Source: an uncultured Bifidobacteriaceae bacterium (GTDB lineage: Bacteria; Verrucomicrobiota; Verrucomicrobiia; Limisphaerales; JADLHS01). Taken from it: a stretch of 43,892 bases of DNA. Positions within the stretch are counted from its first letter, which is position 1; each line of letters opens with the position of its first letter. Below the pieces are notes generated by a model, which made no database searches, had not been told where the DNA came from, and saw nothing but the letters and a program-made list of their open reading frames with translations. The stretch lies in the NCBI GenBank assembly GCA_964502895.1, contig CAZCZP010000003.1:1-43892 (forward strand). The letters run 5' to 3'. Below, piece by piece: positions 9,397 through 30,246 of the stretch. The position numbers were made by a program, and so were the translations under genes.

Positions 9397-9591
9397 TTCC
9401 TTTCTGGCCGTCGAGGTTTTGTCCGGCAGTGACGCGGAAAAAGGGGAGGGACGCGTTCTCTGGCGTCGCTACCAAGGCGAATCGGGGACAACGGGGACCT
9501 TGCCAGCGAAGAATCCTCGGGGCACGGCTGCGGTTTATCTGGAATCGGCTTTCTGTTGCGCACACTTCAGCGTCTTGTCAGGATTCATCCC

Positions 9592-16166: not shown

Positions 16167-16200
16167 GAAGACCGGATGATTTCATCCGGTCTTCGCCATT
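16167..16200 (+). terminator. Probable intrinsic terminator after the PA14-protein gene
   Basis: Perfect 13-nt inverted repeat GAAGACCGGATGA-tt-TCATCCGGTCTTC (16167-16194) followed by GCCATTTTC. Sits 30 nt after the stop at 16137 and before the next start at 16228. Confidence 0.55.
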
Positions 16201-16227: not shown

Positions 16228-19200
16228 GTGAAAGCACAGAATAGGTGGAGTCGAAGTTCCAAAGCCAAACTTGCATTTGCCGTGTTCCGTTTCCGCAATA
16301 ATCACATTCTGCTTCTGGTCATGCTCGGTTGTTTCTCCTGGCGGGCAACCGGCGCGGACTACAAATGGGAAGATGGCCCGAATTTCCGACGCGTGAAACT
16401 TCATCCGAACGGTGCCGGCAAGGATGGATTTACCCAATTGTCTCCTCAAGAAACTCAAATTCATTTTGCCAACACTCTCTCTGAGGAAAGAACGCTATCC
16501 AGTCAGATTCTGCCCAGCGGTTCCGGGGTTGCTGCCGGGGACGTGGATGGCGATGGATTGTGCGACCTCTATTTCGGCGCGCTGAAGACGGGAAGCCGCC
16601 TTTACCGGAATCTTGGAAATTGGAAGTTCGAGGACATCACTGGCAGGACCGGCGTTGGTTGCCCGAATCTGGATGTAACCGGCGCGGCGCTGGTGGATTT
16701 CGACGGCGATGGCGACCTGGACCTGATTGTGAATTCGCTGGGTGGAGGCACACATTTTTTCGTAAACGACGGCAAAGGCAATTTTACGGGTTCAAAGGAA
16801 GTCCTCAACGTCGGCCTGGGTGGGATGCCGCTGGCATTGGCCGATTATGACGGGGACGGGTGGTTGGACCTCTACGTGGCGAATTACCGGCTTAACTCAA
16901 TCGCTGATCGGGACGTACGCTACAGTTTGAGGACCGTCGGGGGAGAACTTGTCGTTGCCGCCATCAACGGCAAACCGTTGACCGACCCCGAGTGGACCAA
17001 TCGGTTTCAATTTCAAATCAAGCACGAGGGCGGAAATGTCCGGTTTGCCAAAGAGGAACTGGGTGAACCGGATGTACTGTATCGGAACGTGGGCAAAGGC
17101 GAATTCAAACAGGTGCCCTGGACCGGAGGTGTATTCCTGGATGAAACCGGCGAACCGTTGAAACACCCACCGTTCGATTGGGGATTAAGCGTCATGTTTC
17201 ACGACCTGAACGGTGATGGGAAACCCGACATATACGTCTGCAACGACTTTAACTCCCCCGATCGCATTTGGATTAATGCCGGACAAGGGCGCTTCCGCGC
17301 CATGGACTGGACCGCCATCCGGCAAATCCCATTTTCCTCGATGGGCGTTGATGTTGCCGACGTGGACGGAGATGGATTCGAGGACATATTTGTGTGTGAG
17401 ATGTTGAGCCGGGAGCATCAGCGACGCCTGGTGCAACGACCCAATTCCATGCCGGAAGTTCCTTCACCGGGCAGGATCCAGGACCGGCCACAACATGCCC
17501 GGAATATGCTCTACTTGAACCGTCGTGACGGCACTTACGCCGAAGTCGCCCAGTATGCCGGCCTCGAAGCATCCGAGTGGTCGTGGACGCCCATGTTTCT
17601 GGACGTAGATCTGGATGGCTATCCCGATTTGCTCGTCGCCAACGGCTTTGCGCGCGACAACATGAACGTTGACGCCCTGGAAGCCATGCACCGGGCGAGC
17701 AGGGGTCAACCGGAATCGGCCCAGGTTACCATACAGCAACGACGACTATTCCCAAAACTGGCCACGCCCAACTGCGCCTTTCGCAATCTTGGAGGCGTAA
17801 GATTCACCGAAGTCGGGCGGGTATGGGGATTCGATTCAGCCGTGATTTCGCAAGGAATGTGTCTGGCGGATCTTGACAACGATGGCGACTTGGACGCGGT
17901 GGCCAACAATTTTAACAGCCCCGCGAGCATTTATCGCAACGACGCCGCCAAGCCGCGCGTTGCCGTAATGTTGAAGGGCCTGCCGCCCAACACCCGGGGC
18001 ATCGGCGCAAAGATTCGCGTTTATGGCGGGCCCGTGCCCGCACAATCCCAGCAGATGATCTGCGGTGGGCGTTATCTTTCGTCCGATCAACCCTTGCGCG
18101 TGTTTGCTGCTGGCGCGCTGACGAACTTGTTGCGGATCGAGGTGGACTGGCCGCGCGGATCGCGAAGCGTCGTGAATGGCGCGGTGGCCAACTTCGTTTA
18201 TGAAATAAATGAAGCCGGCGCGGTTCCGTTTACGCGGCAATCGGCGGCAACGAATTCCCCCTTTTTTCAAGATGTCAGCCGATTGCTTTCGCACGAGCAC
18301 CACGACGATGCCTCCGACGATTTCGCCCGCCAACCAACATTGCCGCGGCGATTGAGCCAGTTGGGTCCCGGTTTGTGCTGGAGTGATGTTGACGGTGACG
18401 GCTGGGACGATCTGGCGATTGGCGGCGGGAAAGGAGGCGCCCTAGCGGTATTGATGAACGATCGGCAGGGTGGCTTCACGCAAAGCCGCGTTTCGACTCC
18501 GGCCAAGCCGTTGACGCGCGACCAAACCGGTGTGCTCGCGTGGCCGCGAACACCTGAGCGCGTGGTCGTCTTGGGCGGATCGGCAAATTACGAGGATGGC
18601 TCTGCGGATGGCGCAAGCGTGTTGGTACATGACCCGATAGCAGGAACCGCAAGCGGACTCATTCCGGCCAGACAGGAAAGCGTTGGCCCTTTGGCGTTGG
18701 GTGATTTGGCTGGTAATGATGAACTGGCACTGTTCGTTGGCGGGCGCATGATCGCTGGCAAATATCCACAGGCGGCGAGTTCACGCATTTTCCGCAGCCG
18801 CGCAGGCAAATTGGAGCTGGACGAAGCGAGCAGCAAAGTGCTTGAACAAGTTGGGCTGGTGAGCGGCGCGGTCTGGAGCGACCTGGACGGCGACGGCTTA
18901 CCCGAATTGCTGCTCGCATGTGAGTGGGGCCCTTTGAAAATATTCCGAAACGTGAATGGCAAACTTCACCCGTGGAACCCGCCGGTCACCACCACCACCA
19001 ACTCTTCATCCTCAACTCTCAACCAGCTTACAGGTTGGTGGAATGGAATCACCACAGGCGACTTCGATGGCGACGGTCGGCTTGACATTATTGCCAGCAA
19101 CTGGGGCCAAAACTCGAAGTACGAACGCCATCGCGCGTCGCCCCTGCGCGTGTATTTCGGCGACTTCTCCGGCCAAGGCATGCACGCCGTGTTGGAATCC

Positions 19201-20031
19201 TATTTTGAGCTTGGGATGGGCAAGTATGTGCCAGGGCGGCGGCTTGAGGTGCTGGCGGAAGCAATGCCGTTTTTGCGGGGTCAGTTCGGGACGCATCAGG
19301 CGTTTGCCAACGCCGGCGTGGATGAAGTGCTGCGAGATTACAAAACTACCGTTCAGTATTTGGAGGCCAACTGTCTCGAAACGATCTTGTTGCTCAACCG
19401 CGGCGACAGACTGGAAAAGCGTGTGCTGCCCGCGGAAGCCCAGTTTGCGCCCGCGTTCGGCATTGTGGTTGCAGATTACGACGGCGACGGGCGCGAAGAC
19501 GTGTTCTTGAGTCAGAATTTCTTTGCGGAAGAACCGGAAACTTCGAGATGCGATGCCGGACGCGGCCTGTGGTTGAGAGGAGATGGTCGTGGTGGGTTGA
19601 ACGCCGTGCCCGGGCCGGAAAGCGGCGTCATGGTCTATGGCGAGCAACGGGCTGCAGCCGCGGCGGATTTCGACCGTGACGGCAGAGTGGATTTGGTGGT
19701 GACCCAGAACGCGGCGGAAACCCGGTTGTTCAGAAATCTCCGAGGCAAACCGGGATTGCGCGTGCGGTTGCAGGGGCCTCCCGGAAATCCGTTGGGCTAC
19801 GGCGTGCAGTTGCGGTTGAAGCGCGGCGAGCAACTCGGTCCAGTCCGTGAGGTCCGCGGCGGCGGAGGGTATTGGTCGCAAGACAGTCCGGTGCAGGTAA
19901 TCGGCGGAGTCGAGCCGCCGACGCAAATATGGGTGCGCTGGCCGGGCGGCAAGACTTTCACCGTGGACGTTCCGGCTGACGCTATGGAGGTACAAATCTC
20001 CATGGACGGACGAATCAGTCGTTTGAAATAG
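16228..20031 (+). CDS. CRTAC1-family-like exoprotein with two [FG-GAP/VCBS propeller + ASPIC/UnbV] modules
   Basis: GTG start with a hydrophobic N-terminus. Many Ca-binding repeats (GDVDGDGLCDLYF, VDFDGDGDLDLIV, ADYDGDGWLDLYV, HDLNGDGKPDIYV, ADVDGDGFEDIFV, ADLDNDGDLDAV…). Two ASPIC/UnbV segments (RVAVMLKGLPPNTRGIGAKIRVYGG… and GLRVRLQGPPGNPLGYGVQLRL…GGGYWSQDS). Confidence 0.9.
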   Translation: MKAQNRWSRSSKAKLAFAVFRFRNNHILLLVMLGCFSWRATGADYKWEDGPNFRRVKLHPNGAGKDGFTQLSPQETQIHFANTLSEERTLSSQILPSGSGVAAGDVDGDGLCDLYFGALKTGSRLYRNLGNWKFEDITGRTGVGCPNLDVTGAALVDFDGDGDLDLIVNSLGGGTHFFVNDGKGNFTGSKEVLNVGLGGMPLALADYDGDGWLDLYVANYRLNSIADRDVRYSLRTVGGELVVAAINGKPLTDPEWTNRFQFQIKHEGGNVRFAKEELGEPDVLYRNVGKGEFKQVPWTGGVFLDETGEPLKHPPFDWGLSVMFHDLNGDGKPDIYVCNDFNSPDRIWINAGQGRFRAMDWTAIRQIPFSSMGVDVADVDGDGFEDIFVCEMLSREHQRRLVQRPNSMPEVPSPGRIQDRPQHARNMLYLNRRDGTYAEVAQYAGLEASEWSWTPMFLDVDLDGYPDLLVANGFARDNMNVDALEAMHRASRGQPESAQVTIQQRRLFPKLATPNCAFRNLGGVRFTEVGRVWGFDSAVISQGMCLADLDNDGDLDAVANNFNSPASIYRNDAAKPRVAVMLKGLPPNTRGIGAKIRVYGGPVPAQSQQMICGGRYLSSDQPLRVFAAGALTNLLRIEVDWPRGSRSVVNGAVANFVYEINEAGAVPFTRQSAATNSPFFQDVSRLLSHEHHDDASDDFARQPTLPRRLSQLGPGLCWSDVDGDGWDDLAIGGGKGGALAVLMNDRQGGFTQSRVSTPAKPLTRDQTGVLAWPRTPERVVVLGGSANYEDGSADGASVLVHDPIAGTASGLIPARQESVGPLALGDLAGNDELALFVGGRMIAGKYPQAASSRIFRSRAGKLELDEASSKVLEQVGLVSGAVWSDLDGDGLPELLLACEWGPLKIFRNVNGKLHPWNPPVTTTTNSSSSTLNQLTGWWNGITTGDFDGDGRLDIIASNWGQNSKYERHRASPLRVYFGDFSGQGMHAVLESYFELGMGKYVPGRRLEVLAEAMPFLRGQFGTHQAFANAGVDEVLRDYKTTVQYLEANCLETILLLNRGDRLEKRVLPAEAQFAPAFGIVVADYDGDGREDVFLSQNFFAEEPETSRCDAGRGLWLRGDGRGGLNAVPGPESGVMVYGEQRAAAAADFDRDGRVDLVVTQNAAETRLFRNLRGKPGLRVRLQGPPGNPLGYGVQLRLKRGEQLGPVREVRGGGGYWSQDSPVQVIGGVEPPTQIWVRWPGGKTFTVDVPADAMEVQISMDGRISRLK

Positions 20032-20058
20032 CCAGCAGAACGGCATTTTGAGCCTGGG

Positions 20059-22389
20059 GTGGAAGAAGGCTTGACCTGTTTCCGCACCGATGGGAATTTC
20101 CACTCCACCGTGCGAGTCTGTTTTTATTATGTCCTGTTAGGTCTTTGCACGCTCTTCGCGAACGTTCGTGCGGCATCCACGACTGCGGGACCCGTACCTA
20201 CAAACTCAAACCCCCGCGCTGCGCTACGTTCGCTGCCGACTCCGGCCGAAAGCACACGGAAGATGATCCAACGGCTTGCGGAGATACGAGAGTCGCGGGA
20301 TCCGATCCAACTCAGCTTTTTGAGCGAACAACGAGCGGCAATGCTCGCGCCGATGATCGGGCGCAGCACCAATGCCCTGCAAACGGTGAATCTGCGATAC
20401 AGCCTGGCTGAAACACTGACGGAAGGCGGAGATCCCGAGGCGGCGCTCGAACAGTTCAAACTGATTGAGGACTTCGTAAAGTCGCTCCAACGGCCCCCTG
20501 AGGAGAAATGGCAGGCTGGCTTCCGCATGAGCAAGGCCATTGCCCTCCTTCGCCTTGGCGAACAGGAAAACTGTTTGCGACTTCACAATGCCGACTCCTG
20601 CCTTTTTCCGCTGCGCCCCGCCGCGTTCCACGAAGTCATTCGCGGTTCGCGCGGAGCGGTCACGGTGTTGAAAGAGCAATTGGAGAAACATCCGGACGAT
20701 CTGAGCGCGCGCTGGTTGATCAACATCGCCTATATGACGCTGGGCGAATATCCGGACAAAGTACCGCCGCAATGGCTCATTCCACCCAAGGCCTTCGAAT
20801 CGGATTACGCCTTGCCCCGGTTCCGAAATGTTGCCGGTGCTTTGGACCTGGATATTGACGGACTCGCGGGCGGATGCATCCTGGACGATTTCGAGAACGA
20901 TGGCTTTCTGGACGTGATTACGTCGTCAATGCATCTGGACGGCCAAATCCGCTACTTTCATAACGATGGCAACGGCAAGTTCACAGAGCGCACGACGGAA
21001 GCGGGCTTGCGCGGGCTGCCCGGGGGCCTGAATATCCAGCAAACCGATTGCAACAATGACGGCTTCCTCGACGTTTGGATCGAACGCGGCGGCTGGTATC
21101 AGAAACAGGGCCGCATTCCCGGTTCGCTGCTGCGCAACAACGGCGATGGCACGTTCACCGATGTGACCGAACAAGCGGGTCTGCTCAGCGCTCGTCCCTC
21201 GCAAACTTGCGTCTGGTTTGACTATGATGGAGACGGCTGGCTCGATCTGTTTAAGGGCAACGAAACCTCTGATCCGGCTGATCCCGATCCCTGCGAACTG
21301 TTCCGCAACAATCGCGACGGGACATTCACTGAATGGGCGGCGGCTTGTGGAGTGGATGCGAAGGCCATCGTAAAAGGTGTTGCCTGCGCGGATTATGACA
21401 ACGACCGCCGACCAGACCTCTACCTGTCAGTTTTGAACGGTCCGAACCAGCTGTTCCACAACGACGGCCCCAACGCTTTGGGCCAATGGAAGTTCAGCGA
21501 CGTTACTACTCGTGCGCGAGTCCGTGAACCGATCCTCAGTTTTCCAACCTGGTTTTTCGACTACGACAACGACGGTTGGGAAGACCTGTTCGTCTCGGGC
21601 TACAAGATGGGTAACCTCGGCGAAGTGGCCGCCGATTATCTTGACCTGCCACATGCAGGAACCCCGCCAAAACTTTATCGCAACAATCAGGACGGCACAT
21701 TTACCGATGCAACCGAGGCAATGAAACTCAGCCACGTGCTCCTCACGATGGGCTGTAATTTTGGCGATCTCGACAACGACGGCTGGCTTGATTTCTATCT
21801 TGGCACCGGCGAGCCCAGCCTTGGCTCGGTCATGCCCAATCGCATGTTCCGGAACGCCAGTGGAAAATTCTTTCAGGATGTTACTACGGCGGGCGGTTTT
21901 GGACATTTGCAAAAAGGCCATGGGGTCGGTTTCGCGGACCTCGACAATGACGGTGACCAGGATGTGTTCATCGTCCTGGGTGGCGCCTACCCCGGCGACC
22001 GGGCCCGAAGCGCGCTTTTCTTGAACCCGGGCAACAAGAATCACTGGATCAAACTCAAGCTGGAAGGAACCCGATCCAATCGAGCCGCCATCGGCGCGCG
22101 CATCAAGATTTCCGTCACCACGCCCGACGGCCCGCGGTCCATTCACAAGACGGTCAACAGCGGCGGAAGCTTCGGCTCATCGCCGTTGCTTCAGGAAATC
22201 GGTCTGGGAAATGCCACCGCCGTCGCGTCAGTGGAAATCTTTTGGCCCACCTCCGGCAGACGCCAGAAGCTCACCGGGTTTGAACTCGACCGGGCTTACC
22301 GCATCCGCGAAGACGGTTCGTCACCTGTGGTTTGGGAACTCAAGCAAGTCGTGTTCGAATCGTCGAAGGCTCACGCGCATGGCCATTGA
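20059..22389 (+). CDS. CRTAC1-family-like protein: helical (TPR-like) N-terminal region + FG-GAP/VCBS repeats + ASPIC/UnbV domain
   Basis: Repeats DDFENDGFLDVI, TDCNNDGFLDVW, FDYDGDGWLDLF, ADYDNDRRPDLY, FDYDNDGWEDLF, GDLDNDGWLDFY, ADLDNDGDQDVF. ASPIC/UnbV segment HWIKLKLEGTRSNRAAIGARIKISV…NSGGSFGSS. GTG start at 20059; an alternative GTG at 20110 would give the signal-like MRVCFYYVLLGLCTLFANVRAAS. Confidence 0.88.
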   Translation: MEEGLTCFRTDGNFHSTVRVCFYYVLLGLCTLFANVRAASTTAGPVPTNSNPRAALRSLPTPAESTRKMIQRLAEIRESRDPIQLSFLSEQRAAMLAPMIGRSTNALQTVNLRYSLAETLTEGGDPEAALEQFKLIEDFVKSLQRPPEEKWQAGFRMSKAIALLRLGEQENCLRLHNADSCLFPLRPAAFHEVIRGSRGAVTVLKEQLEKHPDDLSARWLINIAYMTLGEYPDKVPPQWLIPPKAFESDYALPRFRNVAGALDLDIDGLAGGCILDDFENDGFLDVITSSMHLDGQIRYFHNDGNGKFTERTTEAGLRGLPGGLNIQQTDCNNDGFLDVWIERGGWYQKQGRIPGSLLRNNGDGTFTDVTEQAGLLSARPSQTCVWFDYDGDGWLDLFKGNETSDPADPDPCELFRNNRDGTFTEWAAACGVDAKAIVKGVACADYDNDRRPDLYLSVLNGPNQLFHNDGPNALGQWKFSDVTTRARVREPILSFPTWFFDYDNDGWEDLFVSGYKMGNLGEVAADYLDLPHAGTPPKLYRNNQDGTFTDATEAMKLSHVLLTMGCNFGDLDNDGWLDFYLGTGEPSLGSVMPNRMFRNASGKFFQDVTTAGGFGHLQKGHGVGFADLDNDGDQDVFIVLGGAYPGDRARSALFLNPGNKNHWIKLKLEGTRSNRAAIGARIKISVTTPDGPRSIHKTVNSGGSFGSSPLLQEIGLGNATAVASVEIFWPTSGRRQKLTGFELDRAYRIREDGSSPVVWELKQVVFESSKAHAHGH

Positions 22390-25300
22390 GTTTGACCACC
22401 GGATCGGGCGACCGCGCCGTGAGTATGTTCGTCAGCATCTCGCGCTCTTGCGCGGCTGCGCATTGGGAATTCTGGCGGTGAAGATATCCTTGACCTCGCA
22501 CGCCGCCGATATTCAATGGGTTGCAGGAACCGGCTACCGTTCGGCCCCCTTGCCGCCCGCCGTTCAACAAGTCGAAAGCGGTTTTGCGCTCCTCCCACCC
22601 GGCGCCACTGGAATCAACTTCACGAACATTCTCACGGACGAGAAAACTGCGGAGAACCAGATTCGCCTCAATGGTTCGGGTCTGGCTTTCGGCGATGTTG
22701 ATGGCGACGGTTGGTGCGACGTTTACCTTTGCGGCTTGGAGAATGGCAATCGGCTCTACCGCAATCTTGGCGGGTGGAAATTCGAAGATGTCACCGGGCG
22801 GGCGGGCGTCGCTTGTGCCGATCAGTATTCGGGCGGCGCGGTATTGGCGGACGTCAACGGCGACGGCAGTCTGGACTTGCTCGTCACAGGACTGGGCGTG
22901 GGGACGAGGCTTTTTTTCAACGACGGCAAGGGAATTTTTCGTGAAGCCACCGAGAGCGGACTGGTCCGCAGATTTGCCGGCACCACCATGGCGTTGGCCG
23001 ACATTGATGGCGATGGCGACCTCGATTTATATGTCGCCAATTATCGGACCATGACAATCCGCACGACGGGCCTGCCTTTGCTAAGCATCAACGGCCAGCT
23101 CGCCATTCGTCCTGAAGATCGTGAGGATTATGAATTGAATGCCCAGGGACTCATCATTGAAAAAGGCGAGCCGGATTTTCTCTACGTCAACGATGGGCAT
23201 GGCCGGTTCGAGTCGGTTTCGTGGACCAACGGCGTTTTTCTCGACGACGCAGGCCAGCGATTCACGAAGGCTCCAAAAGACTGGGGACTTGCCGCGGCCT
23301 TCCGCGACCTCAATGGTGATGGCGCGCCAGACCTTTACGTGTGCAACGATTTCATCACGCCGGATCGCATCTGGCTCAATGACGGTCGTGGCCGTTTTCG
23401 GGCCTTTCCGAGCCTGGCTTTGCGCAACACCAGCACGTTTTCCATGGCGGTGGATTTCGCCGACATCAATCGCGATGGCTTCGACGACATTTTCCTGGCT
23501 GATATGCTGGACGTGAATCACCAGATGCGCATCGTTCAATTCCAGTTCACCGAACCGATGCCCGCGGGGCTGGCAGGGATGTTGGAGCGCGCTCAGGTTA
23601 ATCGGAACACGCTTCAGTTGAATCGCGGCGACGGCACCTACGCCGAAGCCGCCTATTACGCGGACATGGAATCCTCCGGCTGGACGTGGTCGGGCATTTT
23701 TCTGGACGTGGACCTGGATGGCTATGAAGACATGATCATGTCCACGGGCTACCCGTTTGACACGCAGGATTTGGACGCCGGCGCGCGCATTGCCGCCATG
23801 GGCCGGATGGGCAAGAACCAGAAGTACAAGATTCTCATGTATCCCAAACTGCGACTGCCGCGCATGGCGTTTCGCAACCTCGGCAACCTGCGCTTCGAGG
23901 ACACCAGCGCGCGGTGGCGATTCAACGACGTTGGCGTGAGTCACGGCATGGCGCTCGCGGACCTCGACAACGACGGCGACCTCGATGTGATCATGAACAG
24001 CTTGAACGAACCTGTCCGCATCTACCGAAATGACTGCACGTCGCCGCGGGCAGCCGTGCGTCTCAAGGGATTGTCGCCCAACACGCGCGGCATCGGCGCG
24101 AAGATTACTGTTCGCGGCGGCGCCGTTCCCGCGCAAAGCCAGGAAATGATGTCTGGCGGCCGCTACCTTGCCGGAGACGACTCCCTGCGCGTCTTCGCCG
24201 TTGGCTCTGAAACGAACAAAATGGCGATTGAGGTGGCTTGGCGCAGTGGCAAGAAAAGTGTGCTCACCAATCTTGCGGCAAATCGCATTTACGAAGTTGA
24301 CGAAACCGACGCGCGCACTTCCAAACCAGAATCAGGCATCCGGAATCCACTGTCTCCATTGTTTGAAGACGTCAGCCAACTGATTTCCCACAGCCACCAC
24401 GACGAACCCTTCGATGACTTTCAGCGGCAGCCGTTGTTACCAAGAAAACTGAGCCAGCTTGGTCCAGGCCTGGCCTGGGGCGATCTCGATGGAGACGGCC
24501 GGGATGACTTGGTCATCGGGAGCGGCAAAGGTGGGCGGCTGGCGGCGTTGCGCAACGACGGCAAAGGCGGATTCACGCGCTTCGCTGGAAAGGCATTCGA
24601 TGAAGCTGTGGTTCGTGATCAGACGGGCGTTGTCTTGTGGCACGGCAATGGTCGCGAGCCCAGAATTCTCGCCGGCTCGGCAGCCTACGAGCCGACCGCG
24701 AAAGAAGGGGCAAGCGTGCGGTCGTTTGATTCCGCCAGCGGTTCCGAACAAATCGCGGAGGAAACAGAATCCAGTGTCGGCGCGCTCGCATTGGGCGACG
24801 TTTACGGAGATGGCACGTTGTGTCTGTTTGTCGGCGGGCGTGTTGTGCCCGGGCGTTATCCCGAACCGGCAAGCTCGCGCCTCCATCGAAGCCGAAATGG
24901 CAAGTTCGGGTTGGACGATCAAGCCAAGGGCGTCCTCGATCAGGTTGGCCTGGTGAGCGGCGCGGTCTTCAGCGATCTCGACGGAGACGGATTTCCCGAA
25001 CTGATTCTCGCGTGCGAATGGGGTCCGCTCAAAATTTTCCGAAACGACCGGGGCCGACTCGTTCGCTGGGATCCGCCGGTAAAAACCATCAACCAACAAC
25101 TCTCAACCCTCAGCCAGTTCACCGGCTGGTGGAACGGCGTGACGGCGGCTGATCTTGATGGTGATGGCCGCATGGATTTGATCGCCGGTAACTGGGGACT
25201 GAACACAAAATATCGTGCGACTGCGGAAAACCCGCGAAAAATTTATTACGGTGACTTTGCGGAGAGCGGCGCGTTGACCGCGATCGAGGCATACTTTGAT

Positions 25301-26125
25301 CGAAGCTTGGGCAAGGAAGTTCCCGAACGCGAGTTTGATGCGATGGCCGCTGCGATGCCGTTTCTGCGCGGCAACTTCGCGACGCACCGCGCTTACGGTG
25401 CCGCCAGTGTGGCCGAGGTCCTGGGTGAACGGTTCAAGTCAGCGAAGCAAGTCAGCGCGAATACGCTTTCCTCCATGATTTTCTTGAATCGTGGTGATCA
25501 TTTCGAGGGCAGGGCACTGCCAACGGAGGCGCAATTGTCTCCGGCCTTCGGGATAGTGGCCGCTGATTTTGACGGCGATGGTGGCGAAGACATTTTACTC
25601 AGTCAGAATTTCTTTGCCGTTGAATCACAGTCCTCGCGTTGCGATGCGGGTCGCGGTTTGTTGTTGAAGGGCGATGGCAAAGGAAATCTGCGACCGGTGC
25701 CGGGCCAGGAAAGCGGCATCGCCGTTTACGGCGAGCAACGCGGCGCGGCCGCCGCGGATTTTAATCGCGATGGCCGCGTGGATTTTGCCGTGACTCAAAA
25801 CGCGAACGCTACAAAGTTATACCGGAATCTGGGCGCTCAGCCCGGTCTCCGTGTGCGCCTGGCCGGGCCGCCGGGGAATCCGACCGGGATTGGGGCCGTC
25901 CTGCGGCTCAGGTCTGGCGACCGCTTCGGACCCGCGCGTGAAATCCATGGCGGCTCCGGCTATTGGTCGCAAGACAGTCCGGTTCAAGTTCTGGCGCTTC
26001 TGCCCGAACCTCTGAAACTTTGGGTGCGTTGGCCCGGCGGTAAAACGACAATGGTTGATCTGCCCGCCGGCGTTCGCAATGTTGAACTCTCGATGGGAGG
26101 CAAGGTAACGGTTATGAGTGATTGA
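22379..26125 (+). CDS. CRTAC1-family-like exoprotein with two [FG-GAP/VCBS propeller + ASPIC/UnbV] modules; paralogue of 16228..20031
   Basis: Collinear by eye with 16228..20031 (for example RLYRNLGGWKFEDVTGRAGVAC vs RLYRNLGNWKFEDITGRTGVGC, and GLRVRLAGPPGNPTGIGAVLRL vs GLRVRLQGPPGNPLGYGVQLRL). The track ORF starts at 22211 inside the previous gene. The ATG at 22379 (MAIEFDHRIGRPRREY…) overlaps the upstream stop by 11 nt (ATGGCCATTGA). Confidence 0.9.
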   Translation: MAIEFDHRIGRPRREYVRQHLALLRGCALGILAVKISLTSHAADIQWVAGTGYRSAPLPPAVQQVESGFALLPPGATGINFTNILTDEKTAENQIRLNGSGLAFGDVDGDGWCDVYLCGLENGNRLYRNLGGWKFEDVTGRAGVACADQYSGGAVLADVNGDGSLDLLVTGLGVGTRLFFNDGKGIFREATESGLVRRFAGTTMALADIDGDGDLDLYVANYRTMTIRTTGLPLLSINGQLAIRPEDREDYELNAQGLIIEKGEPDFLYVNDGHGRFESVSWTNGVFLDDAGQRFTKAPKDWGLAAAFRDLNGDGAPDLYVCNDFITPDRIWLNDGRGRFRAFPSLALRNTSTFSMAVDFADINRDGFDDIFLADMLDVNHQMRIVQFQFTEPMPAGLAGMLERAQVNRNTLQLNRGDGTYAEAAYYADMESSGWTWSGIFLDVDLDGYEDMIMSTGYPFDTQDLDAGARIAAMGRMGKNQKYKILMYPKLRLPRMAFRNLGNLRFEDTSARWRFNDVGVSHGMALADLDNDGDLDVIMNSLNEPVRIYRNDCTSPRAAVRLKGLSPNTRGIGAKITVRGGAVPAQSQEMMSGGRYLAGDDSLRVFAVGSETNKMAIEVAWRSGKKSVLTNLAANRIYEVDETDARTSKPESGIRNPLSPLFEDVSQLISHSHHDEPFDDFQRQPLLPRKLSQLGPGLAWGDLDGDGRDDLVIGSGKGGRLAALRNDGKGGFTRFAGKAFDEAVVRDQTGVVLWHGNGREPRILAGSAAYEPTAKEGASVRSFDSASGSEQIAEETESSVGALALGDVYGDGTLCLFVGGRVVPGRYPEPASSRLHRSRNGKFGLDDQAKGVLDQVGLVSGAVFSDLDGDGFPELILACEWGPLKIFRNDRGRLVRWDPPVKTINQQLSTLSQFTGWWNGVTAADLDGDGRMDLIAGNWGLNTKYRATAENPRKIYYGDFAESGALTAIEAYFDRSLGKEVPEREFDAMAAAMPFLRGNFATHRAYGAASVAEVLGERFKSAKQVSANTLSSMIFLNRGDHFEGRALPTEAQLSPAFGIVAADFDGDGGEDILLSQNFFAVESQSSRCDAGRGLLLKGDGKGNLRPVPGQESGIAVYGEQRGAAAADFNRDGRVDFAVTQNANATKLYRNLGAQPGLRVRLAGPPGNPTGIGAVLRLRSGDRFGPAREIHGGSGYWSQDSPVQVLALLPEPLKLWVRWPGGKTTMVDLPAGVRNVELSMGGKVTVMSD

Positions 26126-26161
26126 CGCCGCCCGCAACTCCAACCGACAAGACCCGCTCCC

Positions 26162-28453
26162 GTGAACAAAGCAGTGCAATCCAGTATCAAGTCGCGGTGG
26201 ATGCGTTTTCAAAGTGTCCTGGCCACGCCTGTTAACGGCGCATCGCTGGCGGCATTTCGCATCGCGCTGGGATTGGTCATGGCGCTGGAGGCTTACTCGC
26301 TCTTCCGGCCGAACGTTGCCGCTATCAGCACCGGGCTGAGTCCGCTCCAGACTTATTACACTTCTGCCGAAATCAAATTCCATTTTCCGTACGTGGGCTT
26401 CGAGTGGGTGCCGTTGTTGCCTGCCCAGTGGATTCATGTCCTGGTCTGCCTCCAGGCATTGGCGGGACTGACCATGGCGCTTGGATTATGCTATCGCGTC
26501 TCAGCCGCAACGGTCTTTCTGACGTGGGGCTACCTGTTCGTCGTGGAATCCACCAGATCCTACTGGCAAAGCCACTATTACCTGGAGGCGCTGCTGACTT
26601 TTTTGATGATCTGGATGCCTGCGGCCCGCAGGTACAGCCTGGATGCGTGGCTGGCGCGAGGTAAATTACAATCTCAAACCGTCCCGTCCTGGCCCATCGC
26701 CCTCTTGCGTGGGCAATTGGTCATCACCTACTTCTACGCCGGCGTCGCCAAACTCAACGCCGATTGGTTGCTGGACGCCGTACCCACTCGCTGGGTGCTC
26801 GCGCAGCCCAGTATCCTCGCTCCATACGAGCCATACCTTTCAGCCTCGGTCCTCGAATCCATAAGGGGAATTCTGCAGAGCGCTTGGTTCGCCTACTTCA
26901 TCAATTACGCCGGAGCCGTATTCGATCTTGGTGTCGGATTCATGCTTGTGGCCCGTCGCACGAGACTATTTGGCATGGTCCTGATGGTGCTGTTTCATGC
27001 CACCAACCATTTCATCATCTTTGATGACATCGGTTGGTTTCCACTGGTTGGGGTCGCCACCGCCTTCATTTTTCTGGAGCCTGACTGGCCGGAGCGGCTT
27101 CGGAATCGCATTTGCAACCTTTGGTCAGCCAACTCGGAGCACCGCAAAGGCGCAAAGGTTCGGAAGGAACAGGCGGCAAAGGTCGCGCGCCTCGTTTCAA
27201 CTGAAAACAAGCGTGCGCCCGCACCGGGCATCCAGCCAGCCCAAGGCCTCCAGCCCGCGACCTTCGTCCTGGCCTGGCTCGTCTGGCAGTCCTTGATGCC
27301 GATCCGCCATTTTCTAATCCGGGCCGATTCACGCTTCACTTACGAATCGCAGAGCTTCAGTTGGCGGCTCAAAGCGGACGCGCGCCGGGCGGCTCCGGCG
27401 GAAATCACAATCAAAGATCAAGTGCTTGTCCCTGATTCCGTCGGCACGACCAATGCGAGTCCAACGGCGCCCGCGACGCGTGTTAATTGGGAACACTGGC
27501 GCGGCGAGCGCGTGCTCTATCGCCGCGTGTCACCCGGGCGGATTGATTGGGAGCGCCTGCCGGAAATTTTCGTCTCGTTGGAACCCATCATCGGCGAGCG
27601 AGTGCTTTACAATCCTCACAGCGGTTCGAGAAGCAATCGGTCGGAAACCGTTTCCCTTGATTACATCCGCTCGCTCTGGCAAGGCCGTTTCGGCCACCAG
27701 CCCAAGGCTGTCAACGCAACGGGTGGTCTGAGTGGCTTTCTTCGCGCGGTCGCCAACGGTTTGCGCGCAGGCGGGAATCAACTGGAAGCCAACGAACTCG
27801 ATCGGCTGGCGGTGCAATATGCGGACAACCACGGCCAGGCCAAGGCGATACCCGACTACGCCGAGGTCGTTGATTTGTTGCGCGGTTTGCACCAACGCGA
27901 CAAAACGGGGGCCATGACCCGATTGCTTCGCTCATTGTCCCCCTTCGCAATGGAAGGAGAGCCCGTGCGACCTTCGCCATGCCTCGTGATTGATGACCCG
28001 CTGTTTCTGGAAGAACAGAGGCGCTCCACCAACGCGCCTCTGGTGATTTACACCACCGACCTAGGTCCGGACGGAATAAAAATGTTGCCCCAGGTTTGCA
28101 TCTTCGATTCGCAAGAACGGCCCGAACTCCCCCCGTACATCTGGTGGAACAGTCCGAAAGATCTGACTCTGTCGAAGCTCATGCACGTCAGCGCGCAACC
28201 GTTTTACCTGAGGCGCTATGCGCGTCGCGTCGCGGAACTCTGGCAATCGGAATACGGACGCCGCCCGGCCATTCACGCCATCACCTTGATGTCACTCAAC
28301 GGGCGGCCGCCCCAACCCATGGTTGATCCCAACGCGGATCTGGCCTCGGTGTCGGTTGCCTGGTTTCGTCACAATCCCTGGATCAGAGACTTGGAGACGC
28401 CGCGCATTCCAAAGTCCGCCGTCGCCTCGAATCCGGGATTCACTTCACCCTGA
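26162..28453 (+). CDS. Vitamin K-dependent gamma-glutamyl carboxylase homologue (HTTM domain membrane protein, full-length VKGC-like architecture)
   Basis: By-eye alignment to human GGCX recalled from memory. [16 protein letters not shown] ~ [29 protein letters not shown] ~ [26 protein letters not shown] ~ [36 protein letters not shown] ~ [32 protein letters not shown] ~ FCSPEWPRKL. FSWRLK ~ YSWDMM in the post-membrane domain. At 763 aa it is similar in length to the 758-aa human enzyme. GTG start at 26162; the ATG at 26201 ([16 protein letters not shown]) is an alternative. Confidence 0.9.
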   Translation: [763 protein letters not shown]

Positions 28454-28481
28454 ATCGGCGGGTCTTCGCAGCAGCCTTCAC

Positions 28482-30098
28482 TCATCGTTTCAAGGCGCGA
28501 TAGAAACGCTGCGGAAAATTGGTCGCCGCCAGATCCAGGAACTGAAACTGTGTGCTGTTCGGGATCACGCTCGTCAGCGAAAGCCAGCTTTGAAAATCTG
28601 TGGAGGCAATGATTTCATACGTCAGGCCGGTGGGCCCGCTGATGTTGAACTGAAAACTCCCATTCGCTCCCGGCGAAGCACCGCTCAACACCGGTGGCGA
28701 CGCCGGGAACGTAATTTCCCAAAGCCCCTGGCTGCCGCCGTGTTCCACCACATAAATCCGGTTGCCGATGATCTCCGCGTCAATCGGATTGGCGAAACCG
28801 CTTACCAATCGAGTGACGGTCATTTGATAATTGGTGTCCCCAAGTTTTGTCAGATTCAATTGCAACAGGTCCTGGCTTGCGTCGCGGAATGGTCCGGCTA
28901 CGCCGTTGCCGTTCGCGTCGCCGGGCGTCCAGCTCAAGACAAAACCCTGCCCGCGAAACGGTGGCGCCATCGCCCCGGCCGAGTCAAAAACCAAGCCCAG
29001 CGGCGAGCGATGCGCGGTGAACGAAGCGAGCGTGCGTCCCTGGTTGCTGGAATCCTTCACCACGCCGTCCGCCGGATCGCGATAACTGTCGGCATCCGGG
29101 CCAAGACTGACGACCGGTTCGGTGAAGTTCGTGGGTGGCGGCGGAAAGGTAGGATCATTGTGGTAGTAGCCGCTGCTGACTGCGATGAATCGCGAATCGA
29201 GCAGCCGGTCCGTGCTGGGATCGTAGCCGGGAAATTGCTGCGGATTATCCGTCCCGCCAATTCGCCACGGGAAACCGTAGTGCAATCCCGGGCGCAGCCA
29301 GTTGATTTCTTCCGACATGTCACGATCCGGACCGTTCTCCGTGCCGAACAAATCACCGTTGGGCGCGAAGGCGAAATCGAAGGTGTTGCGAATTCCTTCG
29401 GCAAATACATAACCCGCCTGCCGCAGCGCGTTGATGTCATTGGTCAAAACCAGATTCGAGCCGGACGCCGGCAGCCGGAGGATTTTTGCCGTCAGGGCGA
29501 CTTCGCGCGTGTTGGGAAAAACGCCGCTCCGGGTTTGGATTTCGCCATGATCCGTCCGCGAACCGCTGTTCAGATAAACGTACTGGCCGTCGGGGCTTAC
29601 GACGATGCCGTTGCACACGTGATCGAACGCCGTCGCGCTGCGCGCGTAGGGCTGCGTTGTGGCCAGCACCGACCAAGTGCGGCTGCCGCCCGCGCCCGGC
29701 ACGCCTTTCATGATGCGAGCGAACGTGTTGTTGTTGCTGTTCGTGTTGACGTTGCCCACGAGATAAATTGTTCCGTCCGGTCCGATCGCCATGCCTTGCG
29801 CGCTGCCAGGGATTCCGTGATTCGCGGACGTATAAACCCGGTTGCTCGTCGAACTGTTGCCGGGCTGCAAGTTGACCTGGTAAATGTCTCCGTTCATCCG
29901 CGAGTAAAAAAGTTGGTTGTTCCGCGGGTCTTTAGCGATGCGGATCGAATTCCCGCTGCCGGTTGATGTGTTTAGCACGAGCCGAATTTGCAGATTGGTG
30001 TTAAGCGCAACCGGCGCGGACTTGGCCGCGTTTGCGATGAAAAACAGGAACAGGAAAGTGATCCCGAAATACGGGCTGAAACGGGGACAGTGCTTCAT
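28482..30098 (-). CDS. PQQ-dependent sugar (glucose/sorbosone) dehydrogenase-like beta-propeller protein with C-terminal beta-sandwich module
   Basis: Start taken at MKHCPRFSPYFGITFLFLFFIANAAKSAP (signal peptide; ATG at 30098). The track ORF extends to 30230. GSDH-type motifs GIRNTFDFAFAPNGDLFGTENGPDRDMSEEINWLRPGLHYGFPW. The C-terminal ~70 aa end in …FPQRFYRALKR. Confidence 0.85.
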   Translation of the reverse strand: MKHCPRFSPYFGITFLFLFFIANAAKSAPVALNTNLQIRLVLNTSTGSGNSIRIAKDPRNNQLFYSRMNGDIYQVNLQPGNSSTSNRVYTSANHGIPGSAQGMAIGPDGTIYLVGNVNTNSNNNTFARIMKGVPGAGGSRTWSVLATTQPYARSATAFDHVCNGIVVSPDGQYVYLNSGSRTDHGEIQTRSGVFPNTREVALTAKILRLPASGSNLVLTNDINALRQAGYVFAEGIRNTFDFAFAPNGDLFGTENGPDRDMSEEINWLRPGLHYGFPWRIGGTDNPQQFPGYDPSTDRLLDSRFIAVSSGYYHNDPTFPPPPTNFTEPVVSLGPDADSYRDPADGVVKDSSNQGRTLASFTAHRSPLGLVFDSAGAMAPPFRGQGFVLSWTPGDANGNGVAGPFRDASQDLLQLNLTKLGDTNYQMTVTRLVSGFANPIDAEIIGNRIYVVEHGGSQGLWEITFPASPPVLSGASPGANGSFQFNISGPTGLTYEIIASTDFQSWLSLTSVIPNSTQFQFLDLAATNFPQRFYRALKR

Positions 30099-30246
30099 GA
30101 AACGCAGTGTTCGATTTGAGCATAATCGCGTCAAGTGAGAATCTAGGTTCGCCGTTTGCCGCGTTTGATCGCCTTCGTCCTTGTGCTTGGGATACGGTTG
30201 CGTTGTATTACGGCCGCAGCCAGACCACAACTTCGCCTAGCTTGCT

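What the first reader, a model, noticed from the sequence alone, without database searches (positions are those of the whole stretch)
16228..28453. Candidate new system: three giant CRTAC1-like Ca-binding exoproteins co-operonic with a vitamin K-dependent carboxylase homologue
Four same-strand genes are packed with gaps of 27 nt (20031/20059), an 11-nt overlap (ATGGCCATTGA at 22379-22389) and 36 nt (26125/26162). The unit is bounded by a terminator upstream and a convergent gene downstream. The first and third genes are collinear paralogues, each with two propeller+ASPIC modules. The last gene is a VKGC/HTTM membrane enzyme whose animal counterpart post-translationally modifies secreted Ca-binding proteins in an extracytoplasmic compartment. 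To my recollection, the B. subtilis HTTM-like protein SdpB is needed to mature an exported peptide (SdpC). The working hypothesis is that the VKGC-like enzyme uses a membrane quinol to modify (gamma-carboxylate or otherwise oxidatively modify) the co-encoded exoproteins during export. I know of no described link between HTTM enzymes and ASPIC/CRTAC1-like proteins.
Basis: inference. Interest (0 to 1): 0.72.

Follow-up and report, generated by a model that had tools for sequence, protein, structure and literature searches.

The report
Bacterial vitamin-K-carboxylase homologue beside giant exoproteins
A soil Verrucomicrobia-type bacterium encodes a full-length relative of the animal vitamin K-dependent carboxylase in a tight gene string with giant secreted calcium-binding propeller proteins, and this pairing recurs across one whole clade of such enzymes, which gives the first concrete candidate protein partners for a bacterial enzyme family whose function is essentially unknown.

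Summary
Four same-strand genes lie at 16228-28453 with spacers of 27, -11 and 36 nt. Three encode FG-GAP + UnbV_ASPIC (CRTAC1-like) proteins and the fourth a 763-aa HTTM + VKGC-lumenal protein. The fourth protein's predicted fold matches only human GGCX, and it keeps the epoxidase centre (K218, W223, D263, N290, F299 equivalents).

- In the enzyme clade that contains the window (Verrucomicrobiota plus Pirellulales), about 25 lineages have FG-GAP/ASPIC and/or PA14-Ig giant genes within 10 kb, often with TPR genes. Eight well-flanked lineages have none.
- In that clade, 24% of flanking DNA encodes these families. The figure is 0 of 221 kb in other long-form clades and 1 of 350 kb in short forms.
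- The link is one-sided: only 1 of 79 loci centred on ASPIC paralogues carries an HTTM gene.

The conserved cluster is larger than reported, about 9556-32478.

No co-encoded protein has a Gla-like Glu cluster. Two of the three human Glu-contact residues are changed (N159 to Ser, Y395 to Gln/Leu). The genomic link is therefore real and, in the literature I could search, undescribed. Gamma-carboxylation of these exoproteins remains an untested inference.

The parts
9556..12861 (+). TPR + FG-GAP protein, 1101 aa, with an N-terminal membrane-anchor-like segment.
   Evidence: Pfam gives many TPR families and FG-GAP_3 at 1e-25. The hydrophobic segment IVGLLLVAGVVLLLV is at residues 21-35. Homologues lie next to VKGC-like genes in L001, L009, L011, L046, L048 and L050.
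13066..16137 (+). PA14 / Ig / Big_5 surface-protein-like gene, 1023 aa, with a signal-peptide-like N-terminus.
   Evidence: Pfam gives PA14 at 2.5e-7, with Ig_3 and Big_5. Related PA14/Ig giants lie beside VKGC-like genes in L002/3, L005, L009, L018, L019, L021, L036, L046, L048, L050, L162, L164, the P0025 locus, L167 and L168.
16167..16194 (+). Hairpin followed by a short U run. It is a probable intrinsic terminator that separates the PA14 gene from the four-gene string.
   Evidence: The sequence is. Folding gives a 12-bp perfect stem; the 90-nt spacer has MFE -33 kcal/mol and z = -2.98.
16228..20031 (+). Gene 1: double-module CRTAC1-like protein (two FG-GAP propellers, each followed by UnbV_ASPIC), 1267 aa.
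   Evidence: It has 12 D-x-[DN]-x-D-G loops. It is 53% identical to gene 3. Orthologues in L042, L003 and L036 lie near VKGC-like genes.
20059..22389 (+). Gene 2: single-module protein, 776 aa. An N-terminal region of about 250 aa has no Pfam match; it is followed by FG-GAP and UnbV_ASPIC.
   Evidence: Two orthologues (750-760 bits) lie directly upstream of the VKGC-like gene in L055.
22379..26125 (+). Gene 3: double-module CRTAC1-like protein, 1248 aa. Its start overlaps the stop of gene 2 by 11 nt.
   Evidence: The public gene call is identical. Its only PDB sequence hit is human CRTAC1.
26162..28453 (+). VKGC-like membrane enzyme, 763 aa (750 aa if it starts at 26201). It has an HTTM transmembrane domain and a periplasmic VKGC-lumenal domain split by an insertion of about 220 aa (residues 446-666).
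   Evidence: Pfam results are. phmmer against human GGCX gives 8e-40. The AF2 model has pLDDT 76.7. Foldseek finds only GGCX entries, at 8e-17 over about 740 columns. K197, W202, D255, N282 and F293 correspond to human K218, W223, D263, N290 and F299. The insertion is shown.
28482..30230 (-). Convergent GSDH-like (glucose/sorbosone dehydrogenase family) propeller protein. The same position is kept in the closest relative, L161.
   Evidence: Pfam gives GSDH at 9e-11, and NCBIfam gives weak hits. L161 has the order HTTM -> GSDH(-) -> FG-GAP(-); L160 also carries homologues.
30247..30651 (+). Small AhpD/CMD-family ORF, 134 aa, with a CQFC..H motif. Its membership of the cluster is uncertain.
   Evidence: Pfam gives CMD at 3e-5, just above cut-off. 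It is not conserved in L161, where the corresponding gap is only 74 nt.
30832..32478 (-). FG-GAP protein, 548 aa, with a conserved N-terminal CxxCH (c-type haem) motif.
   Evidence: Pfam gives FG-GAP_3 at 7e-30. The CSVCH motif is at residue 84, and CxxCH is kept in orthologues in L160, L161, L080, L085, L110, L113 and L143.

Best explanation
The locus is one instance of a conserved, clade-specific gene neighbourhood in Verrucomicrobiota and Pirellulales. In it, a full-length vitamin-K-carboxylase homologue is encoded among giant exported proteins: FG-GAP/UnbV_ASPIC (CRTAC1-like) propellers, PA14/Ig adhesin-like giants and TPR proteins.

Shown here:
- The enzyme has the GGCX fold.
- It keeps the Lys/Trp/Asp/Asn/Phe centre that in human GGCX deprotonates the quinol and holds CO2.
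- It keeps a conserved LL9-type loop.
- It is recurrently adjacent to these exoprotein genes, often on the same strand and tightly spaced.

Inferred: the enzyme sits in the inner membrane with its C-terminal domain in the periplasm. It uses menaquinol and O2 to make a strong base and modifies, most probably carboxylates, residues of one or more of these exported proteins as they emerge. It would act both on the neighbours and, in trans, on paralogues encoded elsewhere. Because the Glu-contact residues are changed and no Gla-like Glu cluster exists, the target is probably not a classical Gla domain. Isolated acidic residues are the most plausible sites, for example in the 6-12 D-x-[DN]-x-D-G Ca-binding loops per protein. 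The 220-aa periplasmic insertion is a candidate docking module.
For: Enzyme identity:
- Pfam gives HTTM at 9e-56 and the lumenal domain at 1e-16.
- phmmer against human GGCX gives 8e-40.
- Foldseek's top 16 hits are all GGCX; the next hit has E = 0.025.
- K218, W223, D263, N290 and F299 equivalents are invariant or near-invariant in 75 homologues. Their roles are taken from PMC12647623.
- The LL9 loop motif [FY]T[FYW]EGLSFSWRLK is conserved.

Association:
- FG-GAP/ASPIC and PA14/Ig are the two families that most often accompany the enzyme in 80 genome loci.
- All positives fall in the window's clade.
- There, 102 of 424 kb of flanks encode these families, against 0 of 221 kb and 1 of 350 kb in the other clades.
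- Seven of nine independently fetched contigs show the same content.
- Same-strand spacers of 85 nt or less occur in the window, L161, L162 (stop and start share a base), L040, L080, L001 and L050.
- Gene order and orientation differ between lineages whose enzymes are only 43-56% identical. This argues against simple inherited synteny.

Substrate plausibility:
- All partners have signal-peptide-like or anchor-like N-termini.
- A bacterial VKGC orthologue (MloH) carboxylates an aspartyl residue.
Against: - No Glu-rich, Gla-like segment exists in any co-encoded protein: the maximum is 7 Glu in 45 aa, no more than in unrelated cytoplasmic proteins of the window.
- Human Glu-contact residues N159 and Y395 are Ser and Gln/Leu here. 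H160 is His or Tyr across the family.
- Only 1 of 79 loci centred on double-module ASPIC homologues has an HTTM gene, and that one is a short-form enzyme.
- L110, which holds the closest orthologues of genes 1 and 3, has an unrelated 726-aa ORF at the enzyme's position.
- HTTM-linked and unlinked paralogues interleave in the tree and share no signature columns.
- Eight well-flanked members of the clade have no such neighbour.
- The genome-wide density of these families in the relevant genomes could not be measured, so the enrichment factor is a lower-bound argument, not a calibrated statistic.
- No VKOR-type epoxide reductase was seen in the window.
Confidence: 0.4

Rival explanations
1. The enzyme and the exoproteins work in the same envelope or extracellular process, but the enzyme's substrate is not these proteins. 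It would act on a small molecule, lipid or glycan, or serve only as a menaquinol epoxidase that feeds another reaction. The genes would be neighbours because they are co-regulated.
For: - The only biochemically defined bacterial orthologue, MloH, acts on a polyketide-peptide intermediate, and viral truncated homologues are proposed to drive lipid desaturation.
- The Glu-contact residues are altered.
- PA14 is a carbohydrate-binding type of domain, and in L110 a glycoside-hydrolase-like ORF occupies the enzyme's slot (the GH resemblance is my own reading of the sequence, as there was no Pfam hit).
- Redox-type neighbours are present: a GSDH-like gene, a CxxCH-FG-GAP gene and an AhpD-like ORF.
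Against: - No biosynthetic genes (NRPS/PKS, desaturase, glycosyltransferase) are consistently adjacent in the surveyed loci.
- The enzyme keeps a large periplasmic domain and the LL9 loop. In GGCX these bind the protein substrate, and the viral lipid-linked forms lack them.
- Translational coupling to an FG-GAP/ASPIC gene in L162 is more typical of an enzyme-client pair.
Confidence: 0.28
2. The enzyme is a maturation or folding helper for giant propeller proteins rather than a carboxylase. For example, it could act as a quinone-linked oxidant in the periplasm, in the way other HTTM-clan proteins are linked to thiol-disulfide chemistry or to processing of exported peptides.
For: - HTTM domains occur fused to DCC-type thiol-disulfide oxidoreductase domains.
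- SdpB/YitO-type proteins are needed to turn an exported precursor into a toxin (that SdpB is an HTTM protein is from my own knowledge of Pfam).
- Thiol-redox type genes lie near some loci: an AhpC-TSA gene in the P0025 locus and a CxxC AhpD-like ORF in the window.
Against: - The CO2-stacking Phe and the whole K218 centre are invariant, which is not needed for thiol chemistry.
- No Cys is invariant among eight double-module orthologues.
- There is no DCC domain, no SdpA-like partner and no small precursor ORF. Spacers of 27, -11, 36 and 28 nt leave no room for one.
Confidence: 0.14
3. There is no functional link. These genomes carry many copies of FG-GAP/ASPIC and PA14 genes arranged in islands, and the enzyme gene happens to sit in or beside such islands in one lineage and its descendants.
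For: - The ASPIC family is large and often tandemly arrayed without any HTTM gene.
- The reverse survey found HTTM in 1 of 79 loci; by my own rough estimate about 0.2 would be expected by chance.
- There is no linked-versus-unlinked signature.
- Eight clade members lack the neighbours.
- I could not measure the true genomic background.
Against: - 24% of flanking DNA is occupied by these families and the share falls with distance (0.24-0.31 within 7 kb, 0.13 at 9-10 kb). To my knowledge no bacterial genome approaches that density.
- About 25 lineages are positive, with different orders and orientations, at 43-56% enzyme identity across two phyla.
- Same-strand spacing of 0-85 nt recurs.
- Cluster edges are sharp, with housekeeping genes immediately outside.
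Confidence: 0.13

Closest known systems
[quoted passage not shown]
   Same: - Same fold over the whole length, by Foldseek and phmmer.
- Same quinol-deprotonation and CO2 centre: K218, W223, D263, N290, F299.
- A homologous LL9 loop.
- The catalytic side faces the extracytoplasmic compartment into which Ca-binding secreted proteins are exported.
   Different: - N159 is Ser and Y395 is Gln/Leu.
- The periplasmic domain carries a 220-aa insertion that cannot be aligned with the human protein by sequence.
- The candidate partners have no propeptide or Gla-domain signature.
- The cofactor would be menaquinol, and no epoxide reductase is encoded nearby.
MloH, the VKGC orthologue of Streptomyces malonomycin biosynthesis
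   Same: It is a bacterial HTTM/VKGC-type carboxylase, and its target is an aspartyl rather than a glutamyl residue. This is a precedent for non-Glu chemistry.
   Different: MloH sits in a PKS-NRPS cluster and acts on a small hybrid intermediate. No such genes occur in the window or in the related loci. I could not compare the sequences directly.
Leptospira VKGC orthologue
   Same: It is a bacterial full-length VKGC homologue. From memory, it was reported to have vitamin K epoxidase activity but no detectable carboxylation of known substrates; this rests on my recollection of Rishavy et al. 2005 and was not retrieved here.
   Different: It comes from a different phylum. No partner proteins were proposed for it, to my knowledge. 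It was not compared here.
SdpB / YitO of the B. subtilis sdpABC and yitPOM operons
   Same: It is a membrane protein encoded in an operon with an exported protein whose maturation needs it.
   Different: Those systems have a small precursor and an SdpA/YitP partner, and they yield a peptide toxin. Here the neighbours are proteins of 776-1267 aa, and there is no small ORF or SdpA-like gene.
Giant-virus VKOR + truncated VKGC-like epoxidase-desaturase modules
   Same: The K218 centre is conserved in a non-animal VKGC relative that is linked by gene neighbourhood to a presumed client function.
   Different: The viral proteins lack the region equivalent to human 384-415 and are fused to lipid desaturases next to VKOR. 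The window enzyme keeps that region, has a large periplasmic domain, and has neither VKOR nor a desaturase nearby.
Cartilage acidic protein 1 (CRTAC1 / ASPIC)
   Same: Genes 1-3 share its FG-GAP propeller + UnbV_ASPIC architecture, and CRTAC1 is their only hit among solved structures.
   Different: The bacterial proteins are duplicated modules or carry extra N-terminal regions. No EGF-type domain was reported by Pfam. CRTAC1 is not known to be a vitamin K-dependent protein (my own knowledge).

Membership tests
VKGC / GGCX family (HTTM + lumenal domain) | HTTM transmembrane domain | tested here: met
   Pfam PF05090 at 8.7e-56, covering profile positions 3-259 of 259.
VKGC / GGCX family (HTTM + lumenal domain) | Extracytoplasmic VKGC lumenal domain and overall GGCX fold | tested here: met
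   PF22777 at 1.3e-16 in two stretches. The AF2 model (pLDDT 76.7) matches only GGCX entries in the PDB, at E = 8e-17, about 740 aligned columns and TM 0.45-0.52. The domain is interrupted by a 220-aa insertion.
VKGC / GGCX family (HTTM + lumenal domain) | Quinol-deprotonating Lys218 with W223, D263 and N290, and the CO2-stacking F299 | tested here: met
   K197, W202, D255, N282 and F293 are present in the window protein and invariant or near-invariant in 75 homologues. Their roles are taken from PMC12647623.
VKGC / GGCX family (HTTM + lumenal domain) | Glu-carboxylate contacts N159, H160 and Y395 | tested here: not met
   N159 is an invariant Ser in long forms. H160 is His in the window and His or Tyr across the family. 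Y395 is Gln in the window and Leu in the family consensus. Short-form bacterial homologues keep N and H.
VKGC / GGCX family (HTTM + lumenal domain) | Propeptide-binding cleft and substrates with a propeptide plus a Glu-rich Gla domain | tested here: not met
   No Glu cluster occurs in any co-encoded protein. The cleft residues (Y415, Y425, L426, V430, F431) fall in a region that does not align by sequence, so the cleft itself is inconclusive.
VKGC / GGCX family (HTTM + lumenal domain) | Vitamin K epoxidase and carboxylase activity | not testable with these tools
   This needs membrane assays and mass spectrometry.
CRTAC1 / ASPIC-like proteins | FG-GAP beta-propeller followed by an UnbV_ASPIC domain | tested here: met
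   Pfam finds both domains in genes 1-3. Gene 3 hits human CRTAC1 9etn at 1.6e-15. There are 6-12 D-x-[DN]-x-D-G loops per protein.
CRTAC1 / ASPIC-like proteins | C-terminal EGF-like domain of animal CRTAC1 | tested here: not met
   No EGF family appears among the Pfam hits at E <= 0.01.
SdpABC-type HTTM maturation systems | Small exported precursor and an SdpA-like partner next to the HTTM gene | tested here: not met
   Spacers of 27, -11, 36 and 28 nt leave no room. No unassigned ORF of 70 aa or more lies within 16228-30230. The neighbours are 776-1267 aa.
MloH-type biosynthetic clusters | VKGC-like gene embedded among PKS/NRPS genes | tested here: not met
   No PKS or NRPS domains occur in the window or in the related loci.

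The most novel reading that the evidence does not exclude
PVC bacteria possess a true menaquinol-dependent protein carboxylation system. In it, the VKGC-like enzyme adds carboxyl groups to acidic residues, possibly Asp in the Ca-binding loops, of giant CRTAC1-like propellers and PA14 adhesins in the periplasm. Vitamin-K-dependent protein modification would then predate animals. The two animal-bacterial shared families VKGC and CRTAC1 would have been functionally linked before either reached animals.
Probability: 0.13. Interest if true: 0.85.

Novelty: new variant of a known kind. Interest (0 to 1): 0.62.

Why it matters
[quoted passage not shown] One has a defined role, in small-molecule biosynthesis; none has a known protein substrate, and carboxyglutamate-type protein modification has not been demonstrated in bacteria.

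A clade-wide, tightly spaced association with a few families of giant exported Ca-binding proteins turns 'what do these enzymes do?' into a concrete experiment. One can look for an enzyme-dependent mass shift on named proteins.

If the link is enzymatic, it would extend vitamin-K chemistry to bacterial envelopes. It would give a first functional handle on the very large, uncharacterised CRTAC1-like/FG-GAP family of Verrucomicrobiota and Planctomycetota. It would also raise the question whether animal CRTAC1 has any relation to vitamin K biology.

If the link is not enzymatic, the finding is still a useful marker of a conserved surface-protein island.

Tried and rejected
- **Reverse survey.** I fetched 79 metagenome loci centred on double-module ASPIC homologues, hoping to find HTTM often. 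Only L138 had one. The idea of an obligatory enzyme-substrate pair is rejected.
- **Dedicated substrate subfamily.** In the tree of 88 double-module proteins, linked and unlinked members interleave. A scan for columns specific to linked proteins gave only 6 weak columns.
- **Gla-like or propeptide-like signatures.** Counts of Glu per 45-aa window are unremarkable.
- **A hidden small partner ORF next to the enzyme.** None exists in the window, and none is consistent in the called genes of nine contigs.
- **Generic promoter/terminator scan.** Counts equal the shuffle expectation, so it says nothing about the operon. Only the hand-identified hairpin at 16167-16194 stands.
- **NCBIfam.** No curated family matches any of the cluster proteins above cut-off.
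- **Rfam and tRNA scans of the window.** Nothing was found.
- **GSDH-like genes as a general partner.** They appear near the enzyme only in the window's nearest relatives and in one other clade. This is too patchy to build on.
- **A calibrated genomic background** for FG-GAP/ASPIC density in the same genomes. I substituted the comparison with other enzyme clades and the distance-decay profile.
- **Literature.** No paper joins HTTM with ASPIC, and only three papers use the phrase 'HTTM domain' at all. CRTAC1/ASPIC searches returned nothing relevant, and a search of gamma-carboxylase with PVC phyla and FG-GAP returned no paper joining them.
Full report
**1. What is in the window**

The ORF list and translations show four + strand genes:
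- 16228-20031, 1267 aa;
- 20059-22389, 776 aa;
- 22379-26125, 1248 aa from the ATG that overlaps the preceding stop; the longest ORF starts at 22211;
- 26162-28453, 763 aa.

The spacers are 27 nt and 36 nt, with an 11-nt overlap (ATGGCCATTGA), exactly as reported. The public gene calls on this 43,892-bp NCBI contig agree for gene 3. For the enzyme they give 750 aa, so 26201 is a possible start.

Pfam finds FG-GAP/FG-GAP_3 repeats plus UnbV_ASPIC in genes 1-3, with two ASPIC stretches each in genes 1 and 3. It finds HTTM (9e-56) plus VKGC_lumenal_dom (1e-16) in gene 4. Genes 1 and 3 are 53% identical and collinear. The only solved-structure sequence hit of gene 3 is human CRTAC1.

A perfect 12-bp hairpin at 16167-16194, followed by a short U run, separates the upstream gene from gene 1. 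The downstream gene is convergent.

**2. The cluster is larger than reported**

Upstream lie a TPR + FG-GAP protein (9556-12861) and a PA14/Ig/Big_5 protein (13066-16137). Downstream lie a GSDH-like propeller (28482-30230, - strand), a small AhpD/CMD-like ORF (30247-30651) and a further FG-GAP protein (30832-32478, - strand).

That last protein carries a CxxCH haem motif that is conserved in its orthologues. The rest of the window holds two-component regulators, transporters and housekeeping genes.

All cluster proteins have signal-peptide-like or membrane-anchor-like N-termini.

**3. The enzyme**

phmmer against all PDB sequences finds only human GGCX (8e-40). An AlphaFold2 model built on 16 homologues (pLDDT 76.7) matches 16 GGCX entries in the PDB (best E = 8e-17, about 740 aligned columns). 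The next hit has E = 0.025.

I took residue roles from the 2025 cryo-EM paper (PMC12647623). The equivalents of K218, W223, D263, N290 and F299 are K197, W202, D255, N282 and F293. They are invariant or nearly so in 75 homologues.

The LL9 loop that closes the Glu pocket in GGCX (human WTNGLYGYSWDMM) is present and strongly conserved as [FY]T[FYW]EGLSFSWRLK. This is therefore not a truncated 'epoxidase only' form of the kind described in giant viruses.

The residues that hold the Glu carboxylate differ, however. N159 is an invariant Ser in all long-form bacterial proteins. H160 is His in the window but His or Tyr across the family. Y395 is Gln or Leu.

Relative to short bacterial forms (about 470-520 aa), the long forms carry a mainly helical insertion of about 220 aa in the periplasmic domain, at window residues 446-666.

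A scan of 1.84 billion representative proteins finds 3040 relatives at E <= 0.001 and 608 at E <= 1e-30. The family is real but rare.

**4. Forward neighbourhood survey**

A scan of one genome per GTDB species returned 80 loci. About 56 are long-form genes, mostly from Verrucomicrobiota with some Pirellulales. About 24 are short-form genes from Acidobacteriota, Chloroflexota, Bacteroidota and others.

Blind clustering of all flanking ORFs put two families on top:
- FG-GAP/ASPIC proteins, in 11 loci;
- PA14/Ig giants, in 11 loci.

A TPR-FG-GAP family follows, in 6 loci. Pfam on representatives confirmed these identities.

On an NJ tree of the enzymes, every positive locus falls in one large clade that includes the window. 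Two other long-form clades and all short forms have none.

| Enzyme group | Flanking DNA encoding homologues of the window's FG-GAP/ASPIC/PA14 genes |
|---|---|
| Window clade | 102 of 424 kb (24%); 0.24-0.31 within 7 kb, 0.13 at 9-10 kb |
| Other long-form clades | 0 of 221 kb |
| Short forms | 1 of 350 kb |

**5. Independent replicate**

I looked up nine further enzyme homologues on their own metagenomic contigs, with precomputed Pfam labels for the neighbours. Seven have the same content:
- P0002 and P0004: FG-GAP genes. P0004 also shares the window's HTTM -> GSDH(-) -> FG-GAP(-) order.
- P0017: a 2822-aa PA14/Ig/cadherin giant, a double-module ASPIC gene, then HTTM. The HTTM stop shares a base with the start of an FG-GAP/ASPIC gene, which is followed by TPR, FG-GAP/ASPIC and TPR genes.
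- P0019: TPR, then two PA14 giants.
- P0025: PA14 giant, FG-GAP/ASPIC, TPR, AhpC-TSA, TPR, then HTTM.
- P0064 and P0082: PA14 giants.

P0034 and P0054 lack them.

My tally for the window clade is about 25 positive lineages, 8 negatives with full flanks and 6 negatives with very short flanks.

Same-strand spacing of 85 nt or less between the enzyme gene and an FG-GAP-type gene recurs in the window, L161, L162, L040, L080, L001 and L050. Elsewhere the pair is convergent or divergent. L040 and L080 are probably two halves of one gene of one MAG.

Order and orientation vary among lineages whose enzymes are only 43-56% identical and that span two phyla. Inherited synteny alone is therefore an unlikely explanation.

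I could not measure the genome-wide density of these families in the same genomes. To my knowledge, no bacterial genome comes near 24% occupancy. Cluster edges are also sharp, with riboflavin, glycolysis or cell-division genes immediately outside.

**6. Reverse survey and its limits**

Of 79 metagenome loci centred on homologues of genes 1 and 3, only L138 has an HTTM gene. That one is a short-form enzyme, adjacent and divergent. These ASPIC genes are often in tandem arrays without any HTTM gene.

L110 holds the closest orthologues of both gene 1 and gene 3, in the order PA14 -> CxxCH-FG-GAP -> gene 1 -> gene 3. Where the window has the enzyme, L110 has a 726-aa ORF with no Pfam match, followed by unrelated genes.

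Linked and unlinked paralogues interleave in the tree, and no column distinguishes them.

The association is therefore asymmetric. This enzyme clade is usually found among such genes, but such genes usually have no enzyme nearby. That pattern fits an enzyme serving many paralogous clients in trans. It fits equally well an enzyme that merely resides in such islands.

**7. Candidate substrates**

No co-encoded protein has a Gla-like Glu cluster. The maximum is 7 Glu in 45 residues, no more than in unrelated proteins of the window.

Genes 1-3 have 12, 6 and 12 D-x-[DN]-x-D-G loops. No Cys is invariant among eight double-module orthologues. There is no small precursor ORF.

**8. Mechanism, with shown and inferred steps kept apart**

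Shown:
- a GGCX-fold enzyme with an intact quinol-deprotonation/CO2 centre and a conserved LL9 loop;
- extracytoplasmic-type partners;
- recurrent tight genomic coupling.

Established knowledge:
- GGCX uses KH2 and O2 to make a strong base that abstracts a proton from Glu, which then captures CO2.
- A bacterial orthologue, MloH, carboxylates an aspartyl residue.
- Verrucomicrobiota and Planctomycetota use menaquinones (my own knowledge).

Inferred: the enzyme uses menaquinol and O2 in the inner membrane to modify exported FG-GAP/ASPIC and/or PA14 proteins in the periplasm. The target is probably acidic residues other than a classical Gla array, and the 220-aa insertion would serve as the docking site. 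I put this at about 0.4.

The rivals are:
- a non-protein substrate within the same envelope process (0.28);
- a maturation or oxidative-folding helper (0.14);
- no functional link (0.13).

**9. Comparison with what is known**

The enzyme is a member of the VKGC/HTTM family by domain content, fold and catalytic centre. It fails the Glu-contact and Gla-substrate criteria, so I do not file it as a gamma-glutamyl carboxylase.

It is unlike the following:
- MloH, because there is no PKS/NRPS context;
- SdpB/YitO, because there is no small precursor or SdpA-like partner;
- the viral epoxidase-desaturase/VKOR modules;
- the DCC-HTTM + DUF5819 pair.

No paper in the searchable library joins HTTM with ASPIC or FG-GAP. 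NCBIfam has no curated model for any of these proteins.

**10. Verdict**

The genomic association is real, clade-specific and apparently undescribed.
- the partner set is broader, including PA14/Ig and TPR proteins;
- the chemistry is probably not classical Gla;
- the link is one-sided.

I rate it a new variant of a known kind, with interest 0.62.

Noticed in passing
window 30832-32478 (- strand); also L160:8023-9612, L161:4942-6576, L080:567-2126, L085:2757-4370, L110:3834-6026, L113:13071-14660, L143:13525-15087: A family of FG-GAP proteins, mostly about 520-545 aa, carries a conserved N-terminal CxxCH motif (CSVCH at residue 84 in the window). This suggests a c-type haem attached to a propeller protein. 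Members sit next to double-module ASPIC genes and, in several loci, next to the VKGC-like gene.
   Followed up: partly
window 30247-30651 (+ strand): A small 134-aa ORF of the carboxymuconolactone decarboxylase/AhpD family, with a CQFC..H motif, lies between the GSDH-like and CxxCH-FG-GAP genes. An AhpC-TSA gene sits in the related P0025 locus. This is possible thiol/peroxide chemistry near the enzyme, but the ORF is not conserved in L161.
   Followed up: partly
L110:13688-15868: In the closest orthologous cluster (PA14 -> CxxCH-FG-GAP -> gene 1 -> gene 3), the slot occupied by the VKGC-like gene in the window holds a 726-aa secreted-looking ORF with no Pfam match. To my eye it resembles a glycoside hydrolase.
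   Followed up: partly
window 26162-28453, protein residues 446-666: Long-form VKGC-like proteins of Verrucomicrobiota and Planctomycetota carry a mostly helical insertion of about 220 aa inside the periplasmic domain. It is absent from short bacterial forms and cannot be aligned with human GGCX by sequence.
   Followed up: partly
L057-L079 (short-form HTTM loci from Acidobacteriota, Chloroflexota, Bacteroidota): Short-form homologues (about 470-520 aa) keep the human-type N159-H160 dyad, whereas long forms have Ser-His/Tyr. The short forms have no FG-GAP/PA14 neighbours and may have a different, possibly more GGCX-like, substrate.
   Followed up: no
L048 (protein P0113), linker after the HTTM domain: A tandem run of about eight copies of the pentapeptide RPNWG is inserted in the cytoplasmic or loop linker of a Pirellulaceae VKGC-like protein.
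   Followed up: no
window 26162-28453, protein residues about 318-362; also P0002: The window protein and its nearest relative lack the hydrophobic segment (consensus WFAxGAILFPxVGAALGW) that most family members have between the HTTM core and the last helix. They carry a charged linker there instead, which could change the topology count.
   Followed up: no
L055, L056, L049, L047: In these loci the VKGC-like reading frame is split into two or three ORFs, or duplicated in part. These are either assembly frameshifts or pseudogenes.
   Followed up: no
L138:808-2250 (- strand) and 2126-5596 (+ strand): This is the only HTTM hit in the reverse survey. A short-form HTTM + lumenal-domain gene lies divergent from and directly adjacent to a distant (30% identity) double-module ASPIC gene. 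It may be a second, independent occurrence of the pairing, or it may be chance.
   Followed up: partly
L007:555-7292: One 'negative' locus of the window clade has a different giant secreted protein beside the enzyme: 2246 aa with five lamin-tail domains, CotH and DUF1349. The window's PA14 protein also has a weak DUF1349 match.
   Followed up: no
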